Part shown: piece by piece, positions 663-7,167 of the stretch | Position numbering within the stretch: position 1 is the stretch's first letter | How the letters are laid out: each line of letters opens with the position of its first letter | From: an archaeon | GTDB lineage: Archaea; Iainarchaeota; Iainarchaeia; Iainarchaeales; CSSED10-239 | DNA length: 7,796 nucleotides | Assembly: GCA_041677685.1 (NCBI GenBank) | Contig: JBAYPN010000031.1 | Span: forward strand, 1-7,796 | Direction of reading: 5' to 3' | The notes under the pieces: generated by a model | Databases searched by the model: none | What the model saw: the letters and a program-made list of their open reading frames with translations, nothing else | What the model was told of the DNA's origin: nothing | Position numbers and translations under genes: made by a program

Positions 663-872
663 ATGAAAGAGATAAAAGGAATAACTTTATCTAAAGGATA
701 TGCAAAAGGTAAAATCCAATTTATATCTGATGCAATGGATCATAAAAAAGCAGCTAAGATATTTAAAAAAGGAAATATACTAGTTACACATATACTATTT
801 CCTGAGTTTAACCCTGTATTTTATAAAGCTAGCACTGTTGTATGTGCTGCTGTTAATCTTTTTAATAAATGA
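663..872 (+). pseudogene. Decayed or truncated paralogue of the PEP-utilising mobile domain, lacking the catalytic His motif
   Basis: The 69-aa ORF aligns with the N-terminal half of the upstream gene (IKGITLSKGYAKGKI...FKKGNILVTH..FPEFNPVFYKAS versus LKGIVASKSIKGVSGKI...FKKGEILVSY..NPNYLVAMKKSK). Where TESGGLLSH should be, it reads TVVCAAVNLFNK and then stops. The motif is not recovered in either other frame. No SD precedes ATG 663. Confidence 0.45.
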
Positions 873-922
873 TTTTTAGTTATTATATTTTCTAATAGTT
901 TTATCTTCTTTTATTCTTTTTA

Positions 923-958
923 TGATAATTTTAAACTTTTTGAAAAGATTTTAAGGTT
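923..958. repeat. Left copy of a 36-bp direct repeat bracketing the R-M cassette
   Basis: tgataattttaaaCtttttgaaaagattttaaggtt at 923-958 matches 3276-3311 at 35 of 36 positions. The single difference is c at 936 versus t at 3289. Looser T-rich similarity continues for a few nt beyond the right end. Confidence 0.9.
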
Positions 959-969
959 CTTTTTATAAT
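940..969 (+). promoter_or_regulatory. Possible sigma70-type promoter (TTGAAA-N18-TATAAT) upstream of the R-M cassette
   Basis: TTGAAA at 940-945 lies inside the repeat and TATAAT at 964-969 lies just outside it, with an 18-nt spacer. AT-rich DNA produces many such matches by chance. If the host is archaeal, the TATA-like ttttataaatata at 1003-1015 is the better candidate. Confidence 0.3.
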
Positions 970-1031
970 TTATTTTATTATTTTTACTTAAAAATAATCT
1001 ATTTTATAAATATAAGCTTTCATTTAATATT

Positions 1032-1886
1032 ATGAAAGTAAAACCTTTTATTAAATGGGCTGGTGGAAAAACACAGCTTATTAATAAAATTGAACCGGAA
1101 CTACCTATAAAAATAAATAGATATTTTGAACCATTTTTAGGTGGAGGGTCAGTTTTATTATTTATACTTCAAAAATATAACCCTAAAGAAGTAATTGTTT
1201 CTGATGTTAATTATGAACTTATTAATACTTATAATATTATTAAAAATAATGTAGAAGAGTTAATTAATTATCTTGAAATATATAAAAATAAACATTCTGA
1301 AAAATTTTATTACACTATAAGAGGACTTGAAAGTACTACTACAAAAAAACTAAAAATAAAAGTATTAAGTGATTCAAATTTAAGTGAAATTGAAAGTGCT
1401 GCAAAATTTATATATTTAAATAAAACTTGTTTTAATGGACTTTATAGAGTAAATAAAGAGAATAAATTTAATGTTCCTTTAGGAAAATATAAAAATCCAG
1501 AGATATATAATAAAGAAAATCTATTAAAATTATCAAAACTTTTAAAAAACATTGAAATTAAATGTTTTTCTTATGAAAAAATAAAAGATTTAGTTAAAAA
1601 AGATGATTTTATATATTTTGATCCTCCATATGATCAAATAAACAATAATAGTTTTACTACTTATACAGAATTTGATTTTATTAGAAAAGATCAAGAAAAA
1701 TTAAAAGATTTCTTTGATTTTTTAAATAAAAAAGGATGTAAGGTTCTTTTAAGTAATAGTTCTACAGATTTTATTAAAAGTTTATATAAAAATTACACTA
1801 TAAAAGAAATAGATGCAAGAAGAATGATAAATTCAGATTCAAGTAAAAGAGGAAATATTAAAGAAGTTTTAATAAAAAATTATTAA
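1032..1886 (+). CDS. Dam-like (alpha-class, D12 family) DNA N6-adenine methyltransferase, M1 of the R-M cassette
   Basis: The 284-aa product has the N-terminal KPFIKWAGGK and EPFLGGGSV (AdoMet-binding FxGxG) motifs. The catalytic DPPY (FIYFDPPYDQ) is at nt 1620-1631. This is the motif order of the Dam/DpnM/MboIA family (PF02086-type). Confidence 0.9.
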   Translation: MKVKPFIKWAGGKTQLINKIEPELPIKINRYFEPFLGGGSVLLFILQKYNPKEVIVSDVNYELINTYNIIKNNVEELINYLEIYKNKHSEKFYYTIRGLESTTTKKLKIKVLSDSNLSEIESAAKFIYLNKTCFNGLYRVNKENKFNVPLGKYKNPEIYNKENLLKLSKLLKNIEIKCFSYEKIKDLVKKDDFIYFDPPYDQINNNSFTTYTEFDFIRKDQEKLKDFFDFLNKKGCKVLLSNSSTDFIKSLYKNYTIKEIDARRMINSDSSKRGNIKEVLIKNY

Positions 1887-1899
1887 AGGAGTGTTTTAT

Positions 1900-2412
1900 A
1901 TGATTAAAGATGGAAAAGGTGGAGCAAATACAAAGACTGGTCTTTTTTTTGAAAAAAGAGCTTCTTTAAAAGATGTTTTTCTAAAAATTAATGGTTTTTC
2001 AATAAAACAAGATGATCTTTTTTTAAACAATAAAAAAATTGCAACTTTTTATACAAAAAATAAAATTTATACAAAATTACTTGCTAAAAATAATATTAAC
2101 TATAAAGATTATATTTCAAAGAAATTAATTCCAGATGATTGTTTATTAATATTAAATAATAGTACTTTATTTATTATTGAAATTAAATTTCAAAATGTAT
2201 CCGGCTCTGTAGATGAAAAACTACAAACTTGCGATTTTAAAAATAAACAATATAATAAATTATTAAACCCATTAAATATTAAAGTAAAATATGTGTATTT
2301 ATTGAATGATTGGTTTAAAAGCAATAATTATAAGGATACTTTAGATTATATTAAATCTGTTAATTGTTATTATTTTTTTAATGAGATTCCTTTAGAATTT
2401 TTTAATTTTTAA
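1900..2412 (+). CDS. Putative type II restriction endonuclease, PD-(D/E)xK fold, 170 aa
   Basis: SD AAGGAG at 1886-1891 lies 8 nt upstream of ATG 1900. The track's GTG at 1891 overlaps the SD and is unlikely to be the start. The motif ...LIPDD(2131-2139)...LFIIEIK(2179-2187)... fits P-D-x14-E-x-K. The gene lies between two methyltransferase genes, the M-R-M order known for MboI. I recognise no similarity to DpnII or MboI endonucleases, which are ~280-290 aa. Confidence 0.6.
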   Translation: MIKDGKGGANTKTGLFFEKRASLKDVFLKINGFSIKQDDLFLNNKKIATFYTKNKIYTKLLAKNNINYKDYISKKLIPDDCLLILNNSTLFIIEIKFQNVSGSVDEKLQTCDFKNKQYNKLLNPLNIKVKYVYLLNDWFKSNNYKDTLDYIKSVNCYYFFNEIPLEFFNF

Positions 2413-2468
2413 TTCGGCCAGCTACCCTCTTTAGAAAAAGATATATACATTTACTACTATATATTTAT

Positions 2469-3278
2469 ATGAACTATTATAATTCTTCAGATTTTAAATT
2501 ATACAAAGGAAATTGTATAGATATTTTAAAGAAACTACCTGAAAATTCAGTAGATTTAATTTTTGCAGATCCTCCTTATTTTCTTTCAAATAATGGTATT
2601 TCTTGTAAAGCAGGAAAAATGGTTTCTGTAAATAAAGCAAAATGGGATGTTTCTTCTGGTTTTGAAAAAGATTTAGAATTTAATTTAAATTGGCTTTCTG
2701 AAGCAAAAAGAGTACTAAAAGATAATGGTAGTATTTGGGTATCTGGAACAATGCATAATATTTATCAAATTGGATATGGTTTTCAAAAACTTGATTATCA
2801 TATATTAAATGAAATAAGTTGGTTTAAACCAAATGCACCTCCAAACCTAAGTTGTAGATTTTTTACACATAGTCATGAAACTTTATTGTGGGCTAGAAAG
2901 GATAAATCTTCAAAACATAAATTTAATTATAATTTAATGAAAGAATGGGATGATAATATAAGTGAAAGTGGAAAACAAATGAGAAGTGTTTGGTCTATAC
3001 CTTTAACTTCTAAGTTTGAAAAGATTAATGGCCCTCATCCAACTCAAAAACCTATAGAACTCTTAAAAAGAATTATTTTATCTTCTACTGATAAAGGAGA
3101 TTTAGTATTAGACCCATTTAATGGTTCTGGAACTACTGGTATTGTATCTAAGATGTATGGTAGAAAATATATTGGAATTGATCTTGAGAATAAATATCTT
3201 GATTTAACTATTAAAAGATTAGATTCTATTAAAAATAAAATTATTGTTACTGAAAGGCAGGGTGCATCTAAGTTTTGA
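2469..3278 (+). CDS. Beta-class DNA N6-adenine methyltransferase, DpnA/MboIC-like, M2 of the R-M cassette
   Basis: The 269-aa product has the catalytic motif IFADPPYFLSN near the N-terminus (nt 2568-2579) and the AdoMet motif LDPFNGSGTTG near the C-terminus, which is beta-class order (PF01555-type). Long stretches resemble what I recall of DpnA (M.DpnIIB): ADPPYFLSN.G, PNLSCR.FTHS.ETLLWARK, GKQM..VW, HPTQKP..LL.RIIL.ST..GD..LDPF.GSGTTG. No SD is present, and a TATA-like aaagatatataca sits ~25 nt upstream of the ATG. Confidence 0.9.
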   Translation: MNYYNSSDFKLYKGNCIDILKKLPENSVDLIFADPPYFLSNNGISCKAGKMVSVNKAKWDVSSGFEKDLEFNLNWLSEAKRVLKDNGSIWVSGTMHNIYQIGYGFQKLDYHILNEISWFKPNAPPNLSCRFFTHSHETLLWARKDKSSKHKFNYNLMKEWDDNISESGKQMRSVWSIPLTSKFEKINGPHPTQKPIELLKRIILSSTDKGDLVLDPFNGSGTTGIVSKMYGRKYIGIDLENKYLDLTIKRLDSIKNKIIVTERQGASKF

Positions 3279-3311
3279 TAATTTTAAATTTTTTGAAAAG
3301 ATTTTAAGGTT
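3276..3311. repeat. Right copy of the 36-bp direct repeat, starting exactly at the M2 stop codon
   Basis: tgataattttaaaTtttttgaaaagattttaaggtt. Its first three bases are the TGA stop of the 2469..3278 CDS. It matches 923-958 at 35 of 36 positions. Confidence 0.9.
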
Positions 3312-3387
3312 TTTCTTTAAAAAGATTAATTTAAAAGCGTATCTACATAATATTTATTTAATACATATAGTATAAAGAGGTAATTTT

Positions 3388-3537
3388 ATGAAAATATTAA
3401 AAGAACCAGAATATAAATACAAGTTAAATAATTGTGACAAAGGTTGTTCTCAAAAATATGGTTGTGATTATTGTGGGCACGATTGTAACAATGATTGTTG
3501 GTATGATTGTAAAAACGATTGTAAAAACGATAAATAA
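3388..3537 (+). CDS. Cys/Asp-rich 49-aa small peptide, candidate RiPP precursor (not in the ORF track)
   Basis: SD AGAGG at 3376-3380 lies 7 nt upstream of ATG 3388, and the stop is TAA 3535-3537. My translation is MKILKEPEYKYKLNNCDKGCSQKYGCDYCGHDCNNDCWYDCKNDCKNDK. It has 8 Cys and 7 Asp, all in the C-terminal 34 residues after a 15-aa Lys/Glu-rich N-terminus. A radical SAM/SPASM gene follows on the same strand. Confidence 0.75.
   Translation: MKILKEPEYKYKLNNCDKGCSQKYGCDYCGHDCNNDCWYDCKNDCKNDK
3481..3531 (+). repeat. Tandem 12-nt coding repeat (gattgtNNNNNN, four units plus a partial fifth) inside the peptide gene
   Basis: The units are gattgtaacaat, gattgttggtat, gattgtaaaaac, gattgtaaaaac, then gat. 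The last two full units (3505-3516 and 3517-3528) are identical. Each unit encodes D-C-x-x. Confidence 0.9.
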
Positions 3538-3549
3538 TTCTTAATGTGA

Positions 3550-3909
3550 TTAACTGTACTCTCAGACTATATATACAATCTAGAAATTAAGCAAGAAAAA
3601 AATAAAATTACTATCTCCACTAAGTATTATGGTTTAGAAGTTGGAAAATGTACTGTAATTTATAAAAATTTAGCTTGGACTATTGATTCAATTAATGTAG
3701 ACCAAAATTTTTGGAATTATAAAATTGGTACAAAATTAATACATAATATTCTTTTTTTAACTAATTATAATTTAAAAAAAAGTATATCTAATAAAAAAAT
3801 AGATTTAATTAATTTTTTTAAAAAAATAGGCTTTAATTCAAAAAAAATAAATAATAAAATATTATTAAAACCTAATTTAAATAAAATTGAAACTAAATTA
3901 AATCCTTAT
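3550..3909 (+). CDS. In-frame open region upstream of the radical SAM CDS with GNAT-like motifs and no defined start codon; either an N-terminal domain of the maturase or a decayed separate gene
   Basis: There are 120 stop-free codons in the same frame as 3910..5043, with no ATG, GTG or TTG among them. The other two + frames close repeatedly across this span. My translation contains ...YGLEVGKCTVIYKNLAWTIDSINVDQNFWNYKIGTKLIHNILFL...KKIDLINFFKKIGFNSKK.... This resembles the GNAT beta4-alpha3 acetyl-CoA loop (degenerate) and the C-terminal FYxKxGF-type motif. Immediately upstream, an in-frame ATG (3544-3546) is followed directly by TGA (3547-3549). Confidence 0.45.
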
Positions 3910-5043
3910 TTGTATAATTTTAAAAAAGTATATCTTAATACTTATAATAATTCAATAGTTAAATTAGATTTCAAAGATGATATTATTAAATTTAAACCAA
4001 AATTAATGAAATTAGATTTTTTAGTTCCAATTTTAACTGATTTTAGATCTATATTTAAATCAATGATTGATAATGGAGAAAGTAATGGAATAAATCTAGT
4101 TACAACATATTCTTGTAATTTAAATTGTAATTATTGTTTTGAAGGCCAAAATAAAGATAAAAGAATAATTAAAGATATTTCTAAATATAATGAAATTTGG
4201 AAGTATATCTTACCAAAGATTACTAATCCTTTTTCAATAGCTTTTTTTGGTGGTGAACCTACACTTAATAAGGATTCAATTTATTTTTTTACTAATAAGA
4301 TAAGAGAATATTCAAAAAAGAAAAAAACAAAATATTATTTAAAAATGATTACAAATGGTACTTTAATAGATAAAGACTTTGTTAATTTTTTTAAACCTAA
4401 TGAATTTTCGCATATTCAATTAACTTTTGATGGTAATAAAAAAAGACATAATGAAGTTAGAGGTTATTATGATAAAATAATAGATTCTATTAAAGAAATA
4501 TATCCAATAACTAGTTCAATAGGGGTAAGATATAATATAACTAAAGATAATTGGACTGAAATTCCAATATTTATTAAAGATTTAACTAAAAAAATACCTT
4601 TAAATGTTCAAAAGAAAGTTTATTTGTCATTAGGATTTATTGATTCAAAAGATGTACAAATATCTGAATTGGATTTAGAAAAAGCAATTAAATCTACTAT
4701 TAAATTAACTAATAATTCAAATATTCGTTTTTTATCAAAACCAACTCAGAAAATTAAAAATTGTCCTGCACAACAAAAAAAAGAAGCATGGATTGATTTT
4801 GATGGTAGGAAATATTTTTGTGAAAGAGTGATTGGTCAAAAAGAATATGAAATAACTGATACTTCTAAATTTGATAATTTTTATCCTAAAGACTGTTTTT
4901 CATGTAAATTATATCCAATATGTGGTGGATATTGTTGGGTTCAAAGTGAACTTAAACAAGATTATTACTTTAATTGTCTTTATTCTAAGGCTATTGCTGA
5001 AGAAGAAATAAAAAAATATCTTTCAAAAGGTGCTAAAAAATGA
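3910..5043 (+). CDS. Radical SAM enzyme with a C-terminal SPASM domain (peptide-modifying maturase type); the true start is probably upstream of the listed TTG
   Basis: The CxxxCxxC motif (CNLNCNYC) is at nt 4114-4137, followed by FFGGEPTL (the GGE SAM motif) and ITNGTLI. The SPASM signature is complete at 4762-4977: CPAQQKKEAWIDFDGRKYFC (C-x13-G-x4-C), then CFSCKLYPICGGYC (C-x2-C-x5-C-x3-C), then a distal Cys in YFNC. That predicts two auxiliary [4Fe-4S] clusters. The TTG at 3910 has no SD, and the frame stays open for 120 codons upstream. Confidence 0.9.
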   Translation: MYNFKKVYLNTYNNSIVKLDFKDDIIKFKPKLMKLDFLVPILTDFRSIFKSMIDNGESNGINLVTTYSCNLNCNYCFEGQNKDKRIIKDISKYNEIWKYILPKITNPFSIAFFGGEPTLNKDSIYFFTNKIREYSKKKKTKYYLKMITNGTLIDKDFVNFFKPNEFSHIQLTFDGNKKRHNEVRGYYDKIIDSIKEIYPITSSIGVRYNITKDNWTEIPIFIKDLTKKIPLNVQKKVYLSLGFIDSKDVQISELDLEKAIKSTIKLTNNSNIRFLSKPTQKIKNCPAQQKKEAWIDFDGRKYFCERVIGQKEYEITDTSKFDNFYPKDCFSCKLYPICGGYCWVQSELKQDYYFNCLYSKAIAEEEIKKYLSKGAKK

Positions 5044-5555
5044 ATATTACTATTACGAAAGATAAAAAACAACATAATTGGAAAAAAATCCATAAAAGAA
5101 TAGTTAAAGATACAAGTTATGAATTTTTAGGTAATTTTACAGATAATACAAAGGATATAACAAACTATTATTGTTATGAAAAAGAAACAAATAAACCTAT
5201 AGGTTATCTCTCTCTTGGTTTTAGTACAGAGTATCATAGGTTTTATGGTATTAACTTTATTGGTATTTTACCAGAATATAGAAGAAAAGGGATTGCAAGT
5301 AAACTATTGTTTTTTGCAAAGAAACATGCAAAAAAAGAAGGTTATCTAAGGTTATTTACAGTTTACAGTACAAGTGAAAGTAATGTTTTTAATTTTAATA
5401 GAAAGCACTGTTTTTCTTCTGAAAGCACATATGTAAACATTCTTTTAGATTCAGGAAAGAGGCTTTATTTTTGTCCTTTTAGTTATTATGATAAAAATCT
5501 TAAGGAGAAGTCAAGTCTTCTTCACACTTTCAAGATAATGTTTTTGAGGTTATAA
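5040..5555 (+). CDS. GNAT-family N-acetyltransferase
   Basis: ATG 5040 overlaps the radical SAM stop (ATGA at 5040-5043). SD-like AAAGGTG at 5026-5032 lies 7 nt upstream. The product contains ...GINFIGILPEYRRKGIASKLLFFAKKHAKKEGY..., which is GNAT motif A (R-x-x-G-x-A/G acetyl-CoA pyrophosphate loop). At 171 aa it is the usual size for the family (PF00583-type). Confidence 0.8.
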   Translation: MNITITKDKKQHNWKKIHKRIVKDTSYEFLGNFTDNTKDITNYYCYEKETNKPIGYLSLGFSTEYHRFYGINFIGILPEYRRKGIASKLLFFAKKHAKKEGYLRLFTVYSTSESNVFNFNRKHCFSSESTYVNILLDSGKRLYFCPFSYYDKNLKEKSSLLHTFKIMFLRL

Positions 5556-6155
5556 CAAAAGAAGCTTACCATAATCTGTAAGATAAAGAAAACCATTCTT
5601 TTCTTCAATAAGACCCTTTTCTTTAAAGTCTCTTATATTATTATATATAGCAGTTCTTCCAAGATTAAGCTTGTCTGAATTTGCAAGCTCTGGAAGAGTT
5701 ATCTCTTTTTTAGAAATTTCTTCTAAAAGATCATAAGCCTTTTTACTAATATCAAAAGAAAGCTTTGGAACAACAACCATTTGGTTTATTTCAGGAGTAA
5801 AATATAAGATTTCTTTAATTTTATTACTTCTAGCATAACATCCTAGCATTATACCTATAGATTTAGGTTTTCTACCAGAAGTAATATCTACATATATTTC
5901 ATTTTCTTCTTCTTTATAGATTTTATCAATATTTATAATAATTTCCTTTGCAATCTCATAAACTTCATAAAGCGTTGTTTTAATTTCTTTAAATTCTATA
6001 TGTTTAAAGGTATTCTTAAGTTTTTCTTTAGTTTGTTTTTGATTATCGTCTGATTGTTTGTCCATTATTAGATATATTGTATCTGGTCCTATTCTTGTGA
6101 TTGCTCCAACCATTGGAGTAAATGAGTAAGTATTTGTTAAAAGTATTTTTTTCAT
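5550..6155 (-). CDS. Csa3-like regulator: N-terminal CARF-like Rossmann domain plus C-terminal winged helix-turn-helix
   Basis: The 201-aa product starts with a beta-alpha-beta pattern (KKILLTNTYSF.P..GAI....PDTIYLIMDK...). It then reads ...IYVDITSGRKPKSIGIMLGCY..., recalling the Csa3 segment ...DLTMGMRMINTLILLG... from memory. The C-terminus looks like a wHTH (ITLPELANSDKLNLGRTAIYNNIRDFKEKGLIEEKNGFLYLTDYGK). An AGGA SD-like element lies ~9 nt upstream of the start. This call rests on pattern recognition only. Confidence 0.55.
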   Translation of the reverse strand: MKKILLTNTYSFTPMVGAITRIGPDTIYLIMDKQSDDNQKQTKEKLKNTFKHIEFKEIKTTLYEVYEIAKEIIINIDKIYKEEENEIYVDITSGRKPKSIGIMLGCYARSNKIKEILYFTPEINQMVVVPKLSFDISKKAYDLLEEISKKEITLPELANSDKLNLGRTAIYNNIRDFKEKGLIEEKNGFLYLTDYGKLLLL

Positions 6156-6160
6156 AGTTT

Positions 6161-6191
6161 TTTTTCCTAATATTTTATTTTTCCTAATATT
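6161..6191. promoter_or_regulatory. Two perfect 14-nt direct repeats (tttttcctaatatt) with 17-nt periodicity just upstream of the Csa3-like gene; candidate operator
   Basis: The copies are at 6161-6174 and 6178-6191. On the gene's strand they read aatattaggaaaaa twice. The proximal copy contains the putative SD and the distal copy abuts a TATAAT-like element. They lie within the 222-bp divergent intergenic region 6156-6377. Confidence 0.35.
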
Positions 6192-6377
6192 ATATGTTGT
6201 TAGTTTACTTTTTAAATGTATTTTTTTAAAGCTTTGTTCAAAAAAAAGTGTATTTGTTTAATTTTTGACAAACCCTTTTTAAACTATTCTGTACTATTTA
6301 TTATATATCTGTTCAGAAAAAAGTGAATGTAATAATTTTATCTAAAAATATATAATTAAAAGAAAATGTGTTAATAA

Positions 6378-7130
6378 ATGGATAAATATATAGAATTAAA
6401 CAAAATAAAGATCTTTTCTCTCGGCATACCTGCTATAAATATACTTTCTGACCTTGATCTTAATAGATCAGAATTTTCAAAAATAGTTTTTTCTCTTAAC
6501 AGAATTGAATCTTGTTCAATAAATATACATATATCTGAAAAAGAAAACAATTTTGATTTTATTTTCCATAGAGATCATCTAGAAAATAACTTTAATCTCG
6601 AAAACACTTTATTTGATCTAAATGCTTCTTTTAAAGGACAAGTCAATATTTTTTTAGGAGTTTTTATAACCCCTTATTTTAAAAAAAATGATTTTAAAAT
6701 CAAAGAAAACTATTTAGACACAAAAGAAGATTCTTTAAAAAATTTAGATCTTCATTTTCTAAGTTACTTAGATAAAGTTTTAGAAGAAGCAACAAAACCA
6801 AATAGTTTTTCTAGTAATAAATCTTTAAACATGTGTGTTATTGTAATGCCCCCAAATCTATTATATAATTTTTCTAAAGAAAAAATTAATATAGACCCAA
6901 AAAAAATTGAAAAAGAATTTTATGATATTGTTAAAGAAAAAACAAAAAAAGCAGATTTAACTATATATATAGATGATTACAATAGAGTAAATAACCTTGA
7001 AAATTGTTTAAGTTGTGAGGAACTAAATATAGCTGCAGCAAATTATCTAAATGGTTTATTTGAAAGTAAAAAAAAAATATTTAATTTAATTAAAAATAAC
7101 CCTAAAGAATTACAGATACTTTTAAAATAG
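6378..7130 (+). CDS. Hypothetical protein, 250 aa, function unknown
   Basis: This is a long ORF in very AT-rich DNA. It has no SD, and a TATA-like aaaaatatataatt at 6344-6357 sits ~27 nt upstream of the ATG. I recognise no confident family signature. A weak FtsZ/tubulin-like strand pattern is discussed under findings. Confidence 0.7.
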   Translation: MDKYIELNKIKIFSLGIPAINILSDLDLNRSEFSKIVFSLNRIESCSINIHISEKENNFDFIFHRDHLENNFNLENTLFDLNASFKGQVNIFLGVFITPYFKKNDFKIKENYLDTKEDSLKNLDLHFLSYLDKVLEEATKPNSFSSNKSLNMCVIVMPPNLLYNFSKEKINIDPKKIEKEFYDIVKEKTKKADLTIYIDDYNRVNNLENCLSCEELNIAAANYLNGLFESKKKIFNLIKNNPKELQILLK

Positions 7131-7167
7131 TTTTAAAAAAAAAAATTAAATAAAAGGAGAATAAAAT

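What the first reader, a model, noticed from the sequence alone, without database searches (positions are those of the whole stretch)
923..3311. The whole R-M cassette is bracketed by a 36-bp direct repeat, the footprint of a mobile R-M unit
The sequence tgataattttaaaYtttttgaaaagattttaaggtt occurs at 923-958 and again at 3276-3311, identical at 35 of 36 positions. The three R-M genes (1032-3278) lie exactly between the two copies, and the right copy begins at the M2 stop codon. A match of this length is not expected by chance, even in AT-rich DNA.

Established knowledge: R-M gene complexes behave as mobile elements, and insertion with long target duplication has been described from comparative genomics of Helicobacter R-M loci (Kobayashi and colleagues).

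Inference: the cassette inserted between the PEP-domain genes and the RiPP operon. Recombination between the two copies would delete it precisely. The decayed PEP-domain gene next to the left junction fits with local disruption.
Basis: partly seen in the sequence, partly recalled or inferred. Interest (0 to 1): 0.65.

Follow-up and report, generated by a model that had tools for sequence, protein, structure and literature searches.

The report
Repeat-flanked restriction cassette in DPANN archaeon
A three-gene restriction-modification unit in a tiny archaeon (a close relative of Candidatus Forterrea) sits between two copies of the last 36-45 bases of a small gene, and that gene end marks a strain-variable gene-swapping hotspot; this looks like a scar of the unit's insertion, of a kind already known from bacteria.

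Summary
The repeat is real. Window 923-958 and 3276-3311 match at 35/36, extending to 41/45 over 920-964 and 3273-3317. That is far beyond chance: score 33, against at most 20 in shuffles.

It is not a dispersed element. The complete Forterrea genome holds one exact copy of the 20-mer core.

The repeat is the 3' end of a conserved 49-51 codon small ORF. In Forterrea-like DPANN archaea this ORF borders a hypervariable region. Eight different contents follow it in different strains:
- this R-M unit
- a HAD gene
- a PEP-synthase-like gene
- four different radical-SAM peptide clusters
- a pair of oppositely oriented small genes (one HNH)

The M1-R-M2 unit is a discrete module. The same three genes occur at unrelated sites in other archaea, and shared homology ends within about 30 nt of each repeat copy.

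Joining the window's outer flanks recreates about 80 nt that is contiguous in a relative. The neighbouring HAD cassette has a clean empty site with a 17-nt duplication.

Against the reading:
- no long empty site for the R-M unit was found
- one strain (L001) carries the unit without the left copy
- no recombinase is visible

Verdict: probably an insertion with long target duplication in a recombination hotspot. It is a new (archaeal) member of a known kind, of moderate interest.

The parts
920..964 (+). Left repeat copy (perfect core 923-958). It is the 3' end of a 5'-truncated remnant of the small ORF.
   Evidence: 36/36 identical to the right copy of L001.
873..968 (+). Remnant of the conserved small ORF (...SFIFFYSFYDNFKLFEKILRFFL*). 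It has no start codon and is open only from the stop of the preceding ORF. Block 897-958 has 1 mismatch to the Forterrea-type gene.
   Evidence: Translations and alignments. BLAST to L052 and L030.
663..872 (+). Remnant of a PEP-synthase-like gene. It matches residues 247-309 of the 509-aa protein of L052 at 65% identity, and both ends are missing. It is an older rearrangement scar.
   Evidence: About 74% nt identity to L052, L030 and L076.
959..979 (+). 21 nt of ambiguous origin between the left copy and the unambiguous start of the R-M module. The direct-repeat partner for the proposed L001 deletion (TATTTTATTATTTTTAC, 971-987) overlaps it.
   Evidence: Mismatches to L001 at 970 and 977-979, identity from 980 on. 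Alignments.
980..3272 (+). The R-M module. It comprises its own TATA-like box (1003-1009, 29 nt before the M1 ATG); M1, a Dam-family m6A methyltransferase (1032-1886); a small PD-(D/E)XK candidate endonuclease (1900-2412); and M2, a beta-class N6/N4 methyltransferase (2469-3278). The last 9 M2 codons (3247-3272) are unique to this lineage.
   Evidence: Pfam and NCBIfam. 99.8% identical to L001 from 980. 84.7% nt identity to L054 over 960-3255 and 73% to L057. Alignments. TATA positions.
3273..3317 (+). Right repeat copy (core 3276-3311). It is an isolated last-45-nt fragment of the small ORF. The M2 stop codon TGA 3276-3278 lies inside it.
   Evidence: 44/45 to Forterrea L030 1947-1903, and 45/45 in L001.
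3318..3329 (+). 12 nt (TAAAAAGATTAA) homologous to the native sequence that follows the small ORF in L052 c2 and in L030 (TACAGATTAA). With 897-964 it reconstitutes about 80 nt that is contiguous in relatives.
   Evidence: BLAST window 3273-3329 against L052 5310-5364, 93%. Alignment.
3388..5555 (+). Radical-SAM peptide (RiPP-like) cluster 1: Cys-rich 49-aa precursor, radical SAM enzyme and GNAT. It is one of at least five alternative clusters at this hotspot and is not part of the R-M unit.
   Evidence: Alternatives in L052, L050, L053 and L066.

Best explanation
The two copies are a duplication of the last 36-45 nt of a small conserved ORF, made when the 2.3-kb M1-R-M2 module entered a strain-variable recombination hotspot of a Forterrea-like DPANN archaeon. 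This is an 'insertion with long target duplication' in the sense of Nobusato and Furuta/Kobayashi. An equivalent route is Campbell-type capture of a circular cassette through the same short homology.

The repeat needs no function of its own. It is a scar. It is also a 36-45 bp substrate on which homologous recombination could later excise, exchange or re-capture the cassette.

The strain that lacks the left copy (L001) is most simply a derivative. An approximately 7.6-kb deletion between two similar 17-mers would have removed the left copy and locked the cassette in. The 17-mers are TATTTTTAAATTTTTAC in the upstream MKNKQK ORF and TATTTTATTATTTTTAC at window 971-987.

Shown: the repeat, its identity as a gene end, its single-copy status in relatives, the modularity of the R-M unit, the coincidence of boundaries, and the hotspot.
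Inferred: the order of events and the enzymology.
For: 1. The repeat is highly significant.
2. It equals the last 15 codons of a 49-51 aa ORF. That ORF is intact in L030 (Cand. Forterrea, complete genome), L031, L050 and L052; L035 and L048 carry the same reading frame but with TTA in place of the ATG start. Differences between copies are conservative and synonymous.
3. It is single-copy in relatives. There is one exact 20-mer in the 839-kb Forterrea genome, only the two window copies in the species-representative MAG, and none in viral contigs.
4. The R-M unit is a module. The same gene order and sizes occur in L054/L055 (84.7% nt over window 960-3255, between a hypothetical gene and rpL44e) and in L057/L058 (73%, between PolB and IF-2B/FtsZ). 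Homology to L001 starts at 966-980 and homology to L054 runs from 960 to about 3255, so both ends fall within about 30 nt of the copies.
5. Window 897-964 plus 3318-3329 recreates a sequence that is contiguous in L052 (5287-5366).
6. There is a precedent at the same site. In Forterrea L030 the HAD cassette lies between the full repeat and a 17-nt partial copy (ATTTTAAGGTTTTTCTT). L052 c2 is its exact empty site. In L052 a 3.6-kb radical-SAM cluster is bracketed by a 51-64 nt copy and a full small ORF.
7. Eight different contents follow the ORF end in different strains.
8. L001 and the window are 99.8% identical over 980-5699 and share polymorphisms, so they belong to one recombining population. 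Homologous recombination is documented for Forterrea (PMC5905446).
9. The window-type genome keeps the ancestral PEPsyn-GNAT-NUDIX synteny: L003 1-1687 is 98.3% identical to L076. L001 is therefore the arrangement that lost DNA.
10. The pattern matches Furuta et al. 2010: R plus M inside, under 20 kb, duplication over 30 bp, no linked mobility gene, and a repeat spanning a stop codon (PMC2853133).
Against: - No empty site with long flanks and no precise deletion product for the R-M unit were found in any collection searched. The reconstructed empty site rests on only 23 + 12 nt of outer flank.
- L001 has the cassette without a left copy. Read alone, L001 looks like a simple insertion of the R-M unit into the canonical small ORF, leaving the 45-nt tail.
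- The same module in L054 and L057 has no flanking direct repeat: alignment scores 11 and 10.5 against null means of 11.7 and 10.4. Long duplication is therefore not an intrinsic property of this module.
- The duplicated segments at the hotspot vary in extent (17, 30, 45, 51-64 and 91 nt). This fits generic illegitimate or homologous recombination as well as any defined mechanism.
- The origin of window 959-979 is ambiguous in AT-rich sequence.
Confidence: 0.5

Rival explanations
1. This is not a target duplication. The R-M module first inserted into the canonical small ORF next to HTH-MKNKQK, replacing its upstream region and first 33 codons (184 nt) and leaving the 45-nt tail, as seen in L001. 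A later, independent rearrangement placed that block behind a second, already existing small-ORF remnant elsewhere in the island. That produced the window arrangement and, incidentally, a direct repeat.
For: - L001 is exactly Forterrea flank (99.3% over 424 nt), then the R-M unit, then 45/45 of the small-ORF tail.
- The left remnant sits among older scars (a PEP-synthase fragment and a truncated ORF), about 3.6 kb beyond where synteny with Forterrea (PEPsyn-GNAT-NUDIX) ends.
- Small-ORF fragments recur in the island without R-M genes: L052 c1, L053, L047 and L067.
- The module shows no duplication at other sites.
Against: - It needs a second rearrangement whose breakpoints fall by chance at the very end of a small-ORF remnant and within about 20 nt of the module's left end.
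- L001 lacks about 7.6 kb of ancestral synteny that the window type retains, so L001 looks derived.
- The window arrangement is seen in at least 9 contigs from several samples, and L001's junction in one contig.
- The outer flanks of the window copies join into a sequence that is contiguous in L052.
Confidence: 0.27
2. The repeat is an attachment or recombination site of a dedicated cassette-capture system, integron-like or served by an integrase acting in trans. Cassettes such as the R-M unit, HAD and the RiPP clusters would be inserted and excised by site-specific recombination at the end of the small ORF.
For: - Several different cassettes, almost all co-oriented, start within a few nt of the same ...AAGGTT(TTT) position.
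- Three cassettes are bracketed by full or partial copies.
- The last 30 nt survive even in alleles where the ORF itself is destroyed: L047, L067 and L075.
Against: - No integrase, transposase or other recombinase is among the neighbours scanned in the five loci with the longest flanks (L001, L003, L030, L052, L076; up to 10 kb on a side).
- The crossover point is not fixed. Junctions differ by up to about 10 nt and the duplicated lengths range from 17 to 91 nt.
- There is no hairpin or attC-like fold: z-scores are +0.4 to +1.0 for 56-mers and -0.3 for the 121-nt unit.
- There is no tRNA and no copy in viral contigs.
- Several junctions are explained by plain microhomology, for example TTTTA in L047 and L067.
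Confidence: 0.1
3. The repeat is a cis-regulatory module (an archaeal BRE/TATA promoter or an operator) kept upstream of both operons. Its sequence GATAAT-TTTAAAC lies 109 nt before the M1 start and 112 nt before the precursor start.
For: - The spacing to the two start codons is nearly equal.
- A TTTTAAAC box also occurs upstream of the PEP-synthase and 179-aa genes.
- Copies lie upstream of four different RiPP precursors.
Against: - In relatives it is coding sequence with protein-level conservation.
- Several clearly placed promoters in this lineage have the TATA box at about -29 to -31 from the ATG. M1 has its own at -29, conserved in L054. The repeat's box would sit at -103 and -106.
- The R-M unit exists without the repeat in L001, L054 and L057.
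Confidence: 0.08
4. The repeat is a dispersed intergenic element (REP- or MITE-like) or a chance or assembly artefact.
For: The genome is AT-rich and contains many low-complexity near-repeats.
Against: - The score is far above the shuffles.
- Both copies are assembled independently in contigs from several samples and by different assemblers.
- There is one exact copy in a complete related genome. The other 12 genome hits and most metagenome hits are single matches in unrelated organisms with no flanking similarity.
- There are no terminal inverted repeats and no secondary structure.
Confidence: 0.02

Closest known systems
Insertion of R-M gene complexes with long target duplication (Nobusato et al. 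2000, Gene 259:99; Furuta, Abe and Kobayashi 2010, NAR 38:2428, PMC2853133)
   Same: - R and M genes alone, 2.3 kb, bracketed by a direct repeat longer than 30 bp.
- The repeat is single-copy in relatives.
- No linked transposase or integrase.
- The repeat spans a stop codon, both of the small ORF and of M2.
- Variable duplication lengths at neighbouring insertions.
   Different: - The host is a DPANN archaeon. Furuta et al. state that no archaeal R-M system survived their screen.
- No clean empty site with flanks over 500 bp is available.
- The target is a gene end that also borders many non-R-M cassettes.
- One strain has lost the left copy.
Integron gene-cassette arrays (attI/attC with IntI), including those reported in Archaea
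   Same: A series of mostly promoter-proximal, co-oriented, swappable cassettes separated by copies of a short recurring sequence.
   Different: - No intI-like recombinase seen.
- The recurring sequence has no attC-like imperfect palindrome or fold.
- Crossover positions and duplicated lengths are not fixed.
- The cassettes carry their own promoters.
Integrative elements that target the 3' end of a gene (usually a tRNA gene) and regenerate it, leaving attL and attR direct repeats
   Same: A direct repeat equal to the 3' end of a conserved gene on both sides of the inserted DNA.
   Different: - No integrase inside or beside the insert, and no tRNA.
- The insert is only an R-M operon.
- The left gene copy is itself a truncated remnant.
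Strain-variable genomic islands or defence islands anchored by conserved genes and remodelled by homologous recombination (for Forterrea: Probst and Banfield 2018, PMC5905446)
   Same: - A conserved anchor (HTH-MKNKQK-small ORF) with variable gene content on both sides.
- Type I, type III and NgoPII-type R-M systems on the other side.
- A mosaic SNP pattern.
   Different: Anchored islands do not normally contain internal duplicated fragments of the anchor. Here at least six partial copies of the anchor's 3' end are embedded between cassettes.
Two-methylase type II systems with order M1-R-M2, such as MboI (mboA-mboB-mboC), and DpnII-type Dam-family plus DpnA-like methylase pairs. This comparison rests on my own knowledge.
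   Same: A Dam-family methylase, then a nuclease gene, then a beta-class (DpnA/HinfI/CcrM-like) methylase in one operon.
   Different: The 170-aa nuclease candidate is not DpnII/MboI-like. It belongs to a large uncharacterised family with about 2,600 homologues, carries a PD...EIK motif and has only a sub-threshold PDDEXK_11 match. The specificity is unknown.

Membership tests
R-M insertion with long target duplication (criteria of Furuta et al. 2010) | The inserted segment contains both R and M gene homologues | tested here: met
   M1 is Dam family (TIGR00571, 4.9e-86). M2 is N6_N4_Mtase (3.7e-59). The middle gene is a PD-(D/E)XK candidate (PDDEXK_11, 7.3e-05, just under the cut-off) that is always linked to these methylases. 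Nuclease activity is inferred.
R-M insertion with long target duplication (criteria of Furuta et al. 2010) | Insert shorter than 20 kb and without other mobility genes | tested here: met
   About 2.3 kb (959/980-3272) holding only three genes. No integrase or transposase in the window or in the neighbours scanned.
R-M insertion with long target duplication (criteria of Furuta et al. 2010) | Direct repeat longer than 30 bp flanking the insert | tested here: met
   35/36 (ancestrally 36/36), extending to 41/45.
R-M insertion with long target duplication (criteria of Furuta et al. 2010) | The repeat is low-copy, and both copies align to one sequence in a related genome | tested here: met
   One exact core in the complete Forterrea genome. 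Both copies align to L030 1903-1947 and to L052 5310-5354.
R-M insertion with long target duplication (criteria of Furuta et al. 2010) | An empty-site genome with more than 500 bp of similarity on both flanks and no R-M genes | tested here: not met
   Only 23 nt (left) and 12 nt (right) of outer flank are contiguous in L052. Every contig with the exact flanking genes has the cassette. The collections searched are incomplete.
Integron cassette array | An IntI-type tyrosine recombinase adjacent to the array | tested here: not met
   No recombinase domain in the neighbours of L001, L003, L030, L052 or L076. Only up to 10 kb on a side is visible.
Integron cassette array | attC-like imperfect inverted repeat that folds as single-stranded DNA | tested here: not met
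   DNA folds of the repeat and of the 121-nt unit are no better than shuffles, with z from -0.3 to +1.0.
Site-specific integrative element (attL/attR) | Fixed crossover core and a cognate integrase | tested here: not met
   Duplicated segments of 17, 30, 45, 51-64 and 91 nt with different junction points, and no integrase.
DNA transposon or MITE | Terminal inverted repeats plus a short fixed target duplication, in multiple copies | tested here: not met
   No inverted repeat at the cassette ends. The repeat is 36-45 nt and single-copy in relatives.
Dispersed intergenic repeat (REP-like, terminator or promoter box) | Many copies at unrelated intergenic sites | tested here: not met
   only hotspot-associated copies in related genomes, and unrelated single chance hits elsewhere.
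Rfam RNA families / tRNA | A match to a curated covariance model or a tRNA gene | tested here: not met
   No tRNA. No Rfam hit near the repeat at E <= 1.

The most novel reading that the evidence does not exclude
The 3' end of the small ORF is the dedicated recombination site of a previously undescribed archaeal cassette platform. It would be functionally analogous to an integron but without a linked IntI or attC hairpins. Through it, Forterrea-like DPANN archaea would capture, stack and swap defence (R-M) and radical-SAM peptide gene cassettes. The repeat pair around the R-M unit would be one attL/attR-like pair of this system.
Probability: 0.1. Interest if true: 0.7.

Novelty: new member of a known kind. 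Interest (0 to 1): 0.36.

Why it matters
R-M systems are argued to behave as selfish mobile units. 'Insertion with long target duplication' is one of the few signatures of such movement that needs no transposase or integrase. It has been documented in bacteria, and the systematic screen that defined it recovered no archaeal case (PMC2853133).

This is a likely archaeal example, in a genome-reduced DPANN organism whose population is known to recombine. The locus shows how a single short gene end is reused as the junction for defence genes and for at least five different radical-SAM peptide clusters.

It also offers a natural before-and-after pair. One arrangement has flanking repeats and can be deleted. 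The other has lost one repeat and is locked in. That pair can be used to test whether R-M units stabilise themselves.

It changes no established concept.

Tried and rejected
1. Dispersed repeat. One scan each of genome contigs and metagenome contigs with the 20-mer core, and two scans of viral contigs. Only hotspot copies turned up in related genomes, and none in viral contigs.

2. Empty site or deletion product. Exact look-ups of the precursor, the 69-aa ORF, the PEP-domain protein, M1 and M2 were made. Every spanning contig has the cassette. A contig break in sample 3300028602 (L008 and L014 overlap by 127 nt) is explained by the SNP at 3420 and not by an alternative junction.

3. Structure, RNA or tRNA. 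DNA folds, Rfam and ARAGORN were all negative. A tRNA-like-looking stretch in the L048 insertion was not confirmed.

4. Protein search with the small ORF. Gene callers almost never call it. The single hit was a fusion fragment that led to L053.

5. Promoter idea. The repeat's TATA-like box is about 105 nt from both starts, whereas several clearly placed promoters of the lineage sit at about -30.

6. Recombinase search in neighbours. None found.

7. 'The left copy belongs to a diverged allele.' Rejected after re-alignment: window 897-958 has a single mismatch to the Forterrea consensus.

9. Naming the restriction enzyme. There was no PDB or NCBIfam match. The only annotated-collection hit is an unannotated, apparently frameshifted homologue in Neisseria gonorrhoeae.


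Full report
OBSERVATION

The window is 22% GC. Positions 923-958 and 3276-3311 are identical at 35/36, the one difference being C936 against T3289. Similarity extends to 920-964 and 3273-3317 at 41/45.

The longest exact shared run is 22 nt, against a mean of 15.5 and a maximum of 19 in 200 dinucleotide shuffles. The best ungapped direct-repeat score in the window is 33. Sixty shuffles gave 16.7 +/- 1.3 with a maximum of 20.

The right copy starts at the M2 stop codon. The three genes between the copies are a Dam-family methylase (1032-1886), a 170-aa PD-(D/E)XK candidate (1900-2412) and a beta-class N6/N4 methylase (2469-3278).

WHERE THE SEQUENCE COMES FROM

The same arrangement is found in nine other contigs that span both copies, from landfill, digester and similar samples. 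The species-representative MAG is labelled Patescibacteria. However, the left extension of a window-type contig (L003 1-1687) is 98.3% identical to Candidatus Forterrea (L076), a Diapherotrites/DPANN archaeon with a closed genome (PMC5905446).

WHAT THE REPEAT IS

Scanning genomes and metagenomes with the 20-mer core gave mostly unrelated single hits plus a small set of Forterrea-like loci. In those loci the repeat is the last 15 codons of a 49-51 aa hydrophobic ORF, MDVIAWPLVLFRNLLLYFPIVLLIVSSFIFFYSFFDNFKLFEKILRFFL. The ORF is intact in L030, L031, L050 and L052 c2. L035 and L048 carry the same reading frame but have TTA in place of the ATG start. Differences between copies are conservative and synonymous.

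The complete Forterrea genome has one exact copy of the core. Viral contigs have none. The repeat has no fold better than shuffles, no Rfam match and no tRNA. It is therefore not a dispersed element, a terminator or an attC-like site.

In the window the left copy is the end of a 5'-truncated remnant of this ORF. The frame is open over 873-968, and block 897-958 has one mismatch to the Forterrea gene. The remnant is fused behind a fragment of a diverged PEP-synthase-like gene, which is the 69-aa ORF and matches residues 247-309 at 65% identity. The right copy is an isolated 45-nt tail. It is followed by 12 nt (3318-3329) that match the native sequence after the ORF in L052 and L030.

THE HOTSPOT

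The small ORF belongs to a conserved anchor made of an HTH gene, a 37-codon MKNKQK ORF and the small ORF. What follows the ORF end differs between strains:
- a HAD gene, then PEP synthase (L030, L031, L067, L076)
- PEP synthase directly (L052 c2)
- a 47-aa peptide plus a radical SAM enzyme (L050)
- a Cys-rich 79-aa peptide plus radical SAM/SPASM, a 398-aa ORF (read as a glycosyltransferase, not scanned) and a 310-aa gene (L052 c1)
- a 30-aa peptide plus a radical SAM enzyme and a TlyA-like gene (L053)
- convergent small genes, one of them HNH (L047)
- the R-M unit (window, left copy)
- the window's own peptide cluster (window right copy, and L001)

A fifth peptide cluster lies near a diverged anchor in L066.

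The other side of the anchor is also variable and rich in R-M systems: type I, type III and NgoPII-type.

Partial copies of the ORF end are embedded between cassettes. They measure 17 nt after the HAD gene in L030, 30 nt in L047/L067/L075, 45 nt in the window and L001, 51-64 nt in L052 c1, and 91 nt in L053.

For the HAD cassette, L052 c2 is a clean empty site. The cassette lies between ...AAGATTTTAAGGTTTTTCTT|GTAA and ...AAGG|ATTTTAAGGTTTTTCTT|TACAG.

THE R-M UNIT IS A MODULE

The nuclease candidate has about 2,600 homologues in DPANN archaea, Omnitrophota and other groups.

The whole M1-R-M2 unit occurs at unrelated sites. In L054/L055 it is 84.7% identical in nucleotides over window 960-3255 and lies between a hypothetical gene and rpL44e. 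In L057/L058 it is 73% identical and lies between PolB and IF-2B/FtsZ.

Strong identity to L054 runs from about 990 to about 3246. It includes the unit's own TATA box at -29. The last nine M2 codons (3247-3272) are unique to this lineage. In L054 and L057 there is no flanking direct repeat.

THE SECOND ARRANGEMENT

L001 (GCA_028708135.1) carries the same unit and the same downstream cluster. It is 99.8% identical over 980-5699 and shares polymorphisms with window-type contigs.

Left of position 980 it is instead 99.3% identical to the Forterrea HTH-MKNKQK anchor, and it has no left copy. Its right copy is 45/45 identical to Forterrea and 36/36 identical to the window's left core.

Window-type genomes keep the ancestral PEPsyn-GNAT-NUDIX block. 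L001 joins MKNKQK ...TATTTTTAAATTTTTAC directly to TTAAAAATAATC..., and the window has TATTTTATTATTTTTAC (971-987) at the same point. One deletion of about 7.6 kb between these similar 17-mers would therefore turn a window-type chromosome into L001.

The reverse history is also possible: the R-M unit first inserted into the canonical ORF, and the block later moved behind another remnant. That history needs an extra coincidence. It is kept as the main rival.

INTERPRETATION

The best reading (about 0.5) is that the R-M module entered this hotspot at the end of a small-ORF copy and duplicated 36-45 nt. Three points support it:
- The window's outer flanks (897-964 plus 3318-3329) join into a sequence that is contiguous in L052.
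- The boundaries of the module, defined independently from L001 and L054, coincide with the copies to within about 30 nt.
- The neighbouring HAD and L052 cassettes show the same bracket pattern.

This matches the 'insertion with long target duplication' class of Nobusato and Furuta/Kobayashi: R plus M, under 20 kb, duplication over 30 bp, no mobility gene, and a repeat spanning a stop codon (PMC2853133). Their empty-site criterion of more than 500 bp of flank is not met.

The enzymology is unknown. Two routes fit equally well: staggered or illegitimate insertion, and Campbell-type capture of a circular cassette by homologous recombination on the short shared segment.

Site-specific recombination is disfavoured. 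The junctions and duplicated lengths vary, no recombinase is visible, and there is no structured site.

A promoter role is disfavoured. Several clearly placed promoters in this lineage lie at about -30 and the unit has its own, whereas the repeat's TATA-like box is about 105 nt upstream of both starts.

VERDICT

This is a probable archaeal member of a known kind of R-M mobility scar, embedded in a gene-swapping hotspot that is itself more interesting than the repeat. Interest is moderate.

Noticed in passing
window 3388-5555; L052 1834-5194; L050 1472-124 (minus strand); L053 269-1650; L066 1-2305 (minus strand): At least five different radical-SAM peptide (RiPP-like) clusters, each with its own short precursor, occupy the same hotspot in closely related Forterrea-like DPANN strains. 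Four of them start 57-137 nt after a copy of the small-ORF end.
   Followed up: partly
window 3550-3909 (in frame with the radical SAM ORF that starts at TTG 3910): About 360 nt of open reading frame with no ATG, GTG or TTG start. Region 3541-4085 is 70% identical to L053 2396-2926 and to L066 2889-2358, where it directly precedes the GNAT gene. It is probably an unannotated gene or domain, or it uses a non-canonical start.
   Followed up: partly
window 6349-7138: Contig L004 lacks this segment, which holds the 250-aa hypothetical ORF 6378-7130. It is a second presence/absence polymorphism in the same population.
   Followed up: no
window 5700-6182: L001 differs from the window at about 40 clustered positions plus an 18-nt indel, inside and just upstream of the HFX_2341/CARF-like gene. 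The preceding 4.7 kb differs at about 10 positions. This looks like a recombination tract from a diverged allele.
   Followed up: no
L001 8436-8519; L030 2214-2101 (minus strand); L047 666-553; L048 1485-1400: A second small hydrophobic ORF (MKNKQKITIYLLIATFSFAIINIFLNF...) lies next to the small ORF and is another recurrent breakpoint. The R-M junction in L001 and an 860-nt insertion with a 246-aa ORF in L048 both follow ...TATTTTTAC. L047, L067 and L075 share a 183-nt deletion through a TTTTA microhomology, which fuses this ORF to the last 30 nt of the small ORF.
   Followed up: partly
L001 1464-6399; L030 3204-6260 and L076 10908-20237; L066 7512-9349: The other side of the HTH anchor is also strain-variable and carries different R-M systems: type III mod/res, type I hsdRSM with AAA and PIN genes, and NgoPII plus a C5 methylase. 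The whole region is a defence island.
   Followed up: no
L020 / L037 (JALNZW010000025.1): The species-representative MAG holding this contig is labelled 'Patescibacteria group bacterium'. The contig's extension is 98% identical to Cand. Forterrea (DPANN archaea), so this is likely a binning or labelling error.
   Followed up: partly
L052 560-650 and 5355-5440: The roughly 85-nt promoter region that normally precedes PEP synthase is also duplicated, at about 76% identity, in front of a 179-aa gene. It is an older, nested duplication in the same array.
   Followed up: partly
L065 (Neisseria gonorrhoeae NZ_CP119140.1, 8433-13958): A 51%-identical homologue of the small nuclease candidate follows a frameshifted M2-like methylase, beside a gene that looks DpnI-like by eye. 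None of these is annotated in the record. This 2.17-Mb record is filed as a plasmid.
   Followed up: no
window 3388-3537: The 49-aa precursor is very Cys-rich, with repeated (D/N)DC motifs (CDKGCSQKYGCDYCGHDCNNDCWYDCKNDCKNDK). It has no Pfam family.
   Followed up: no
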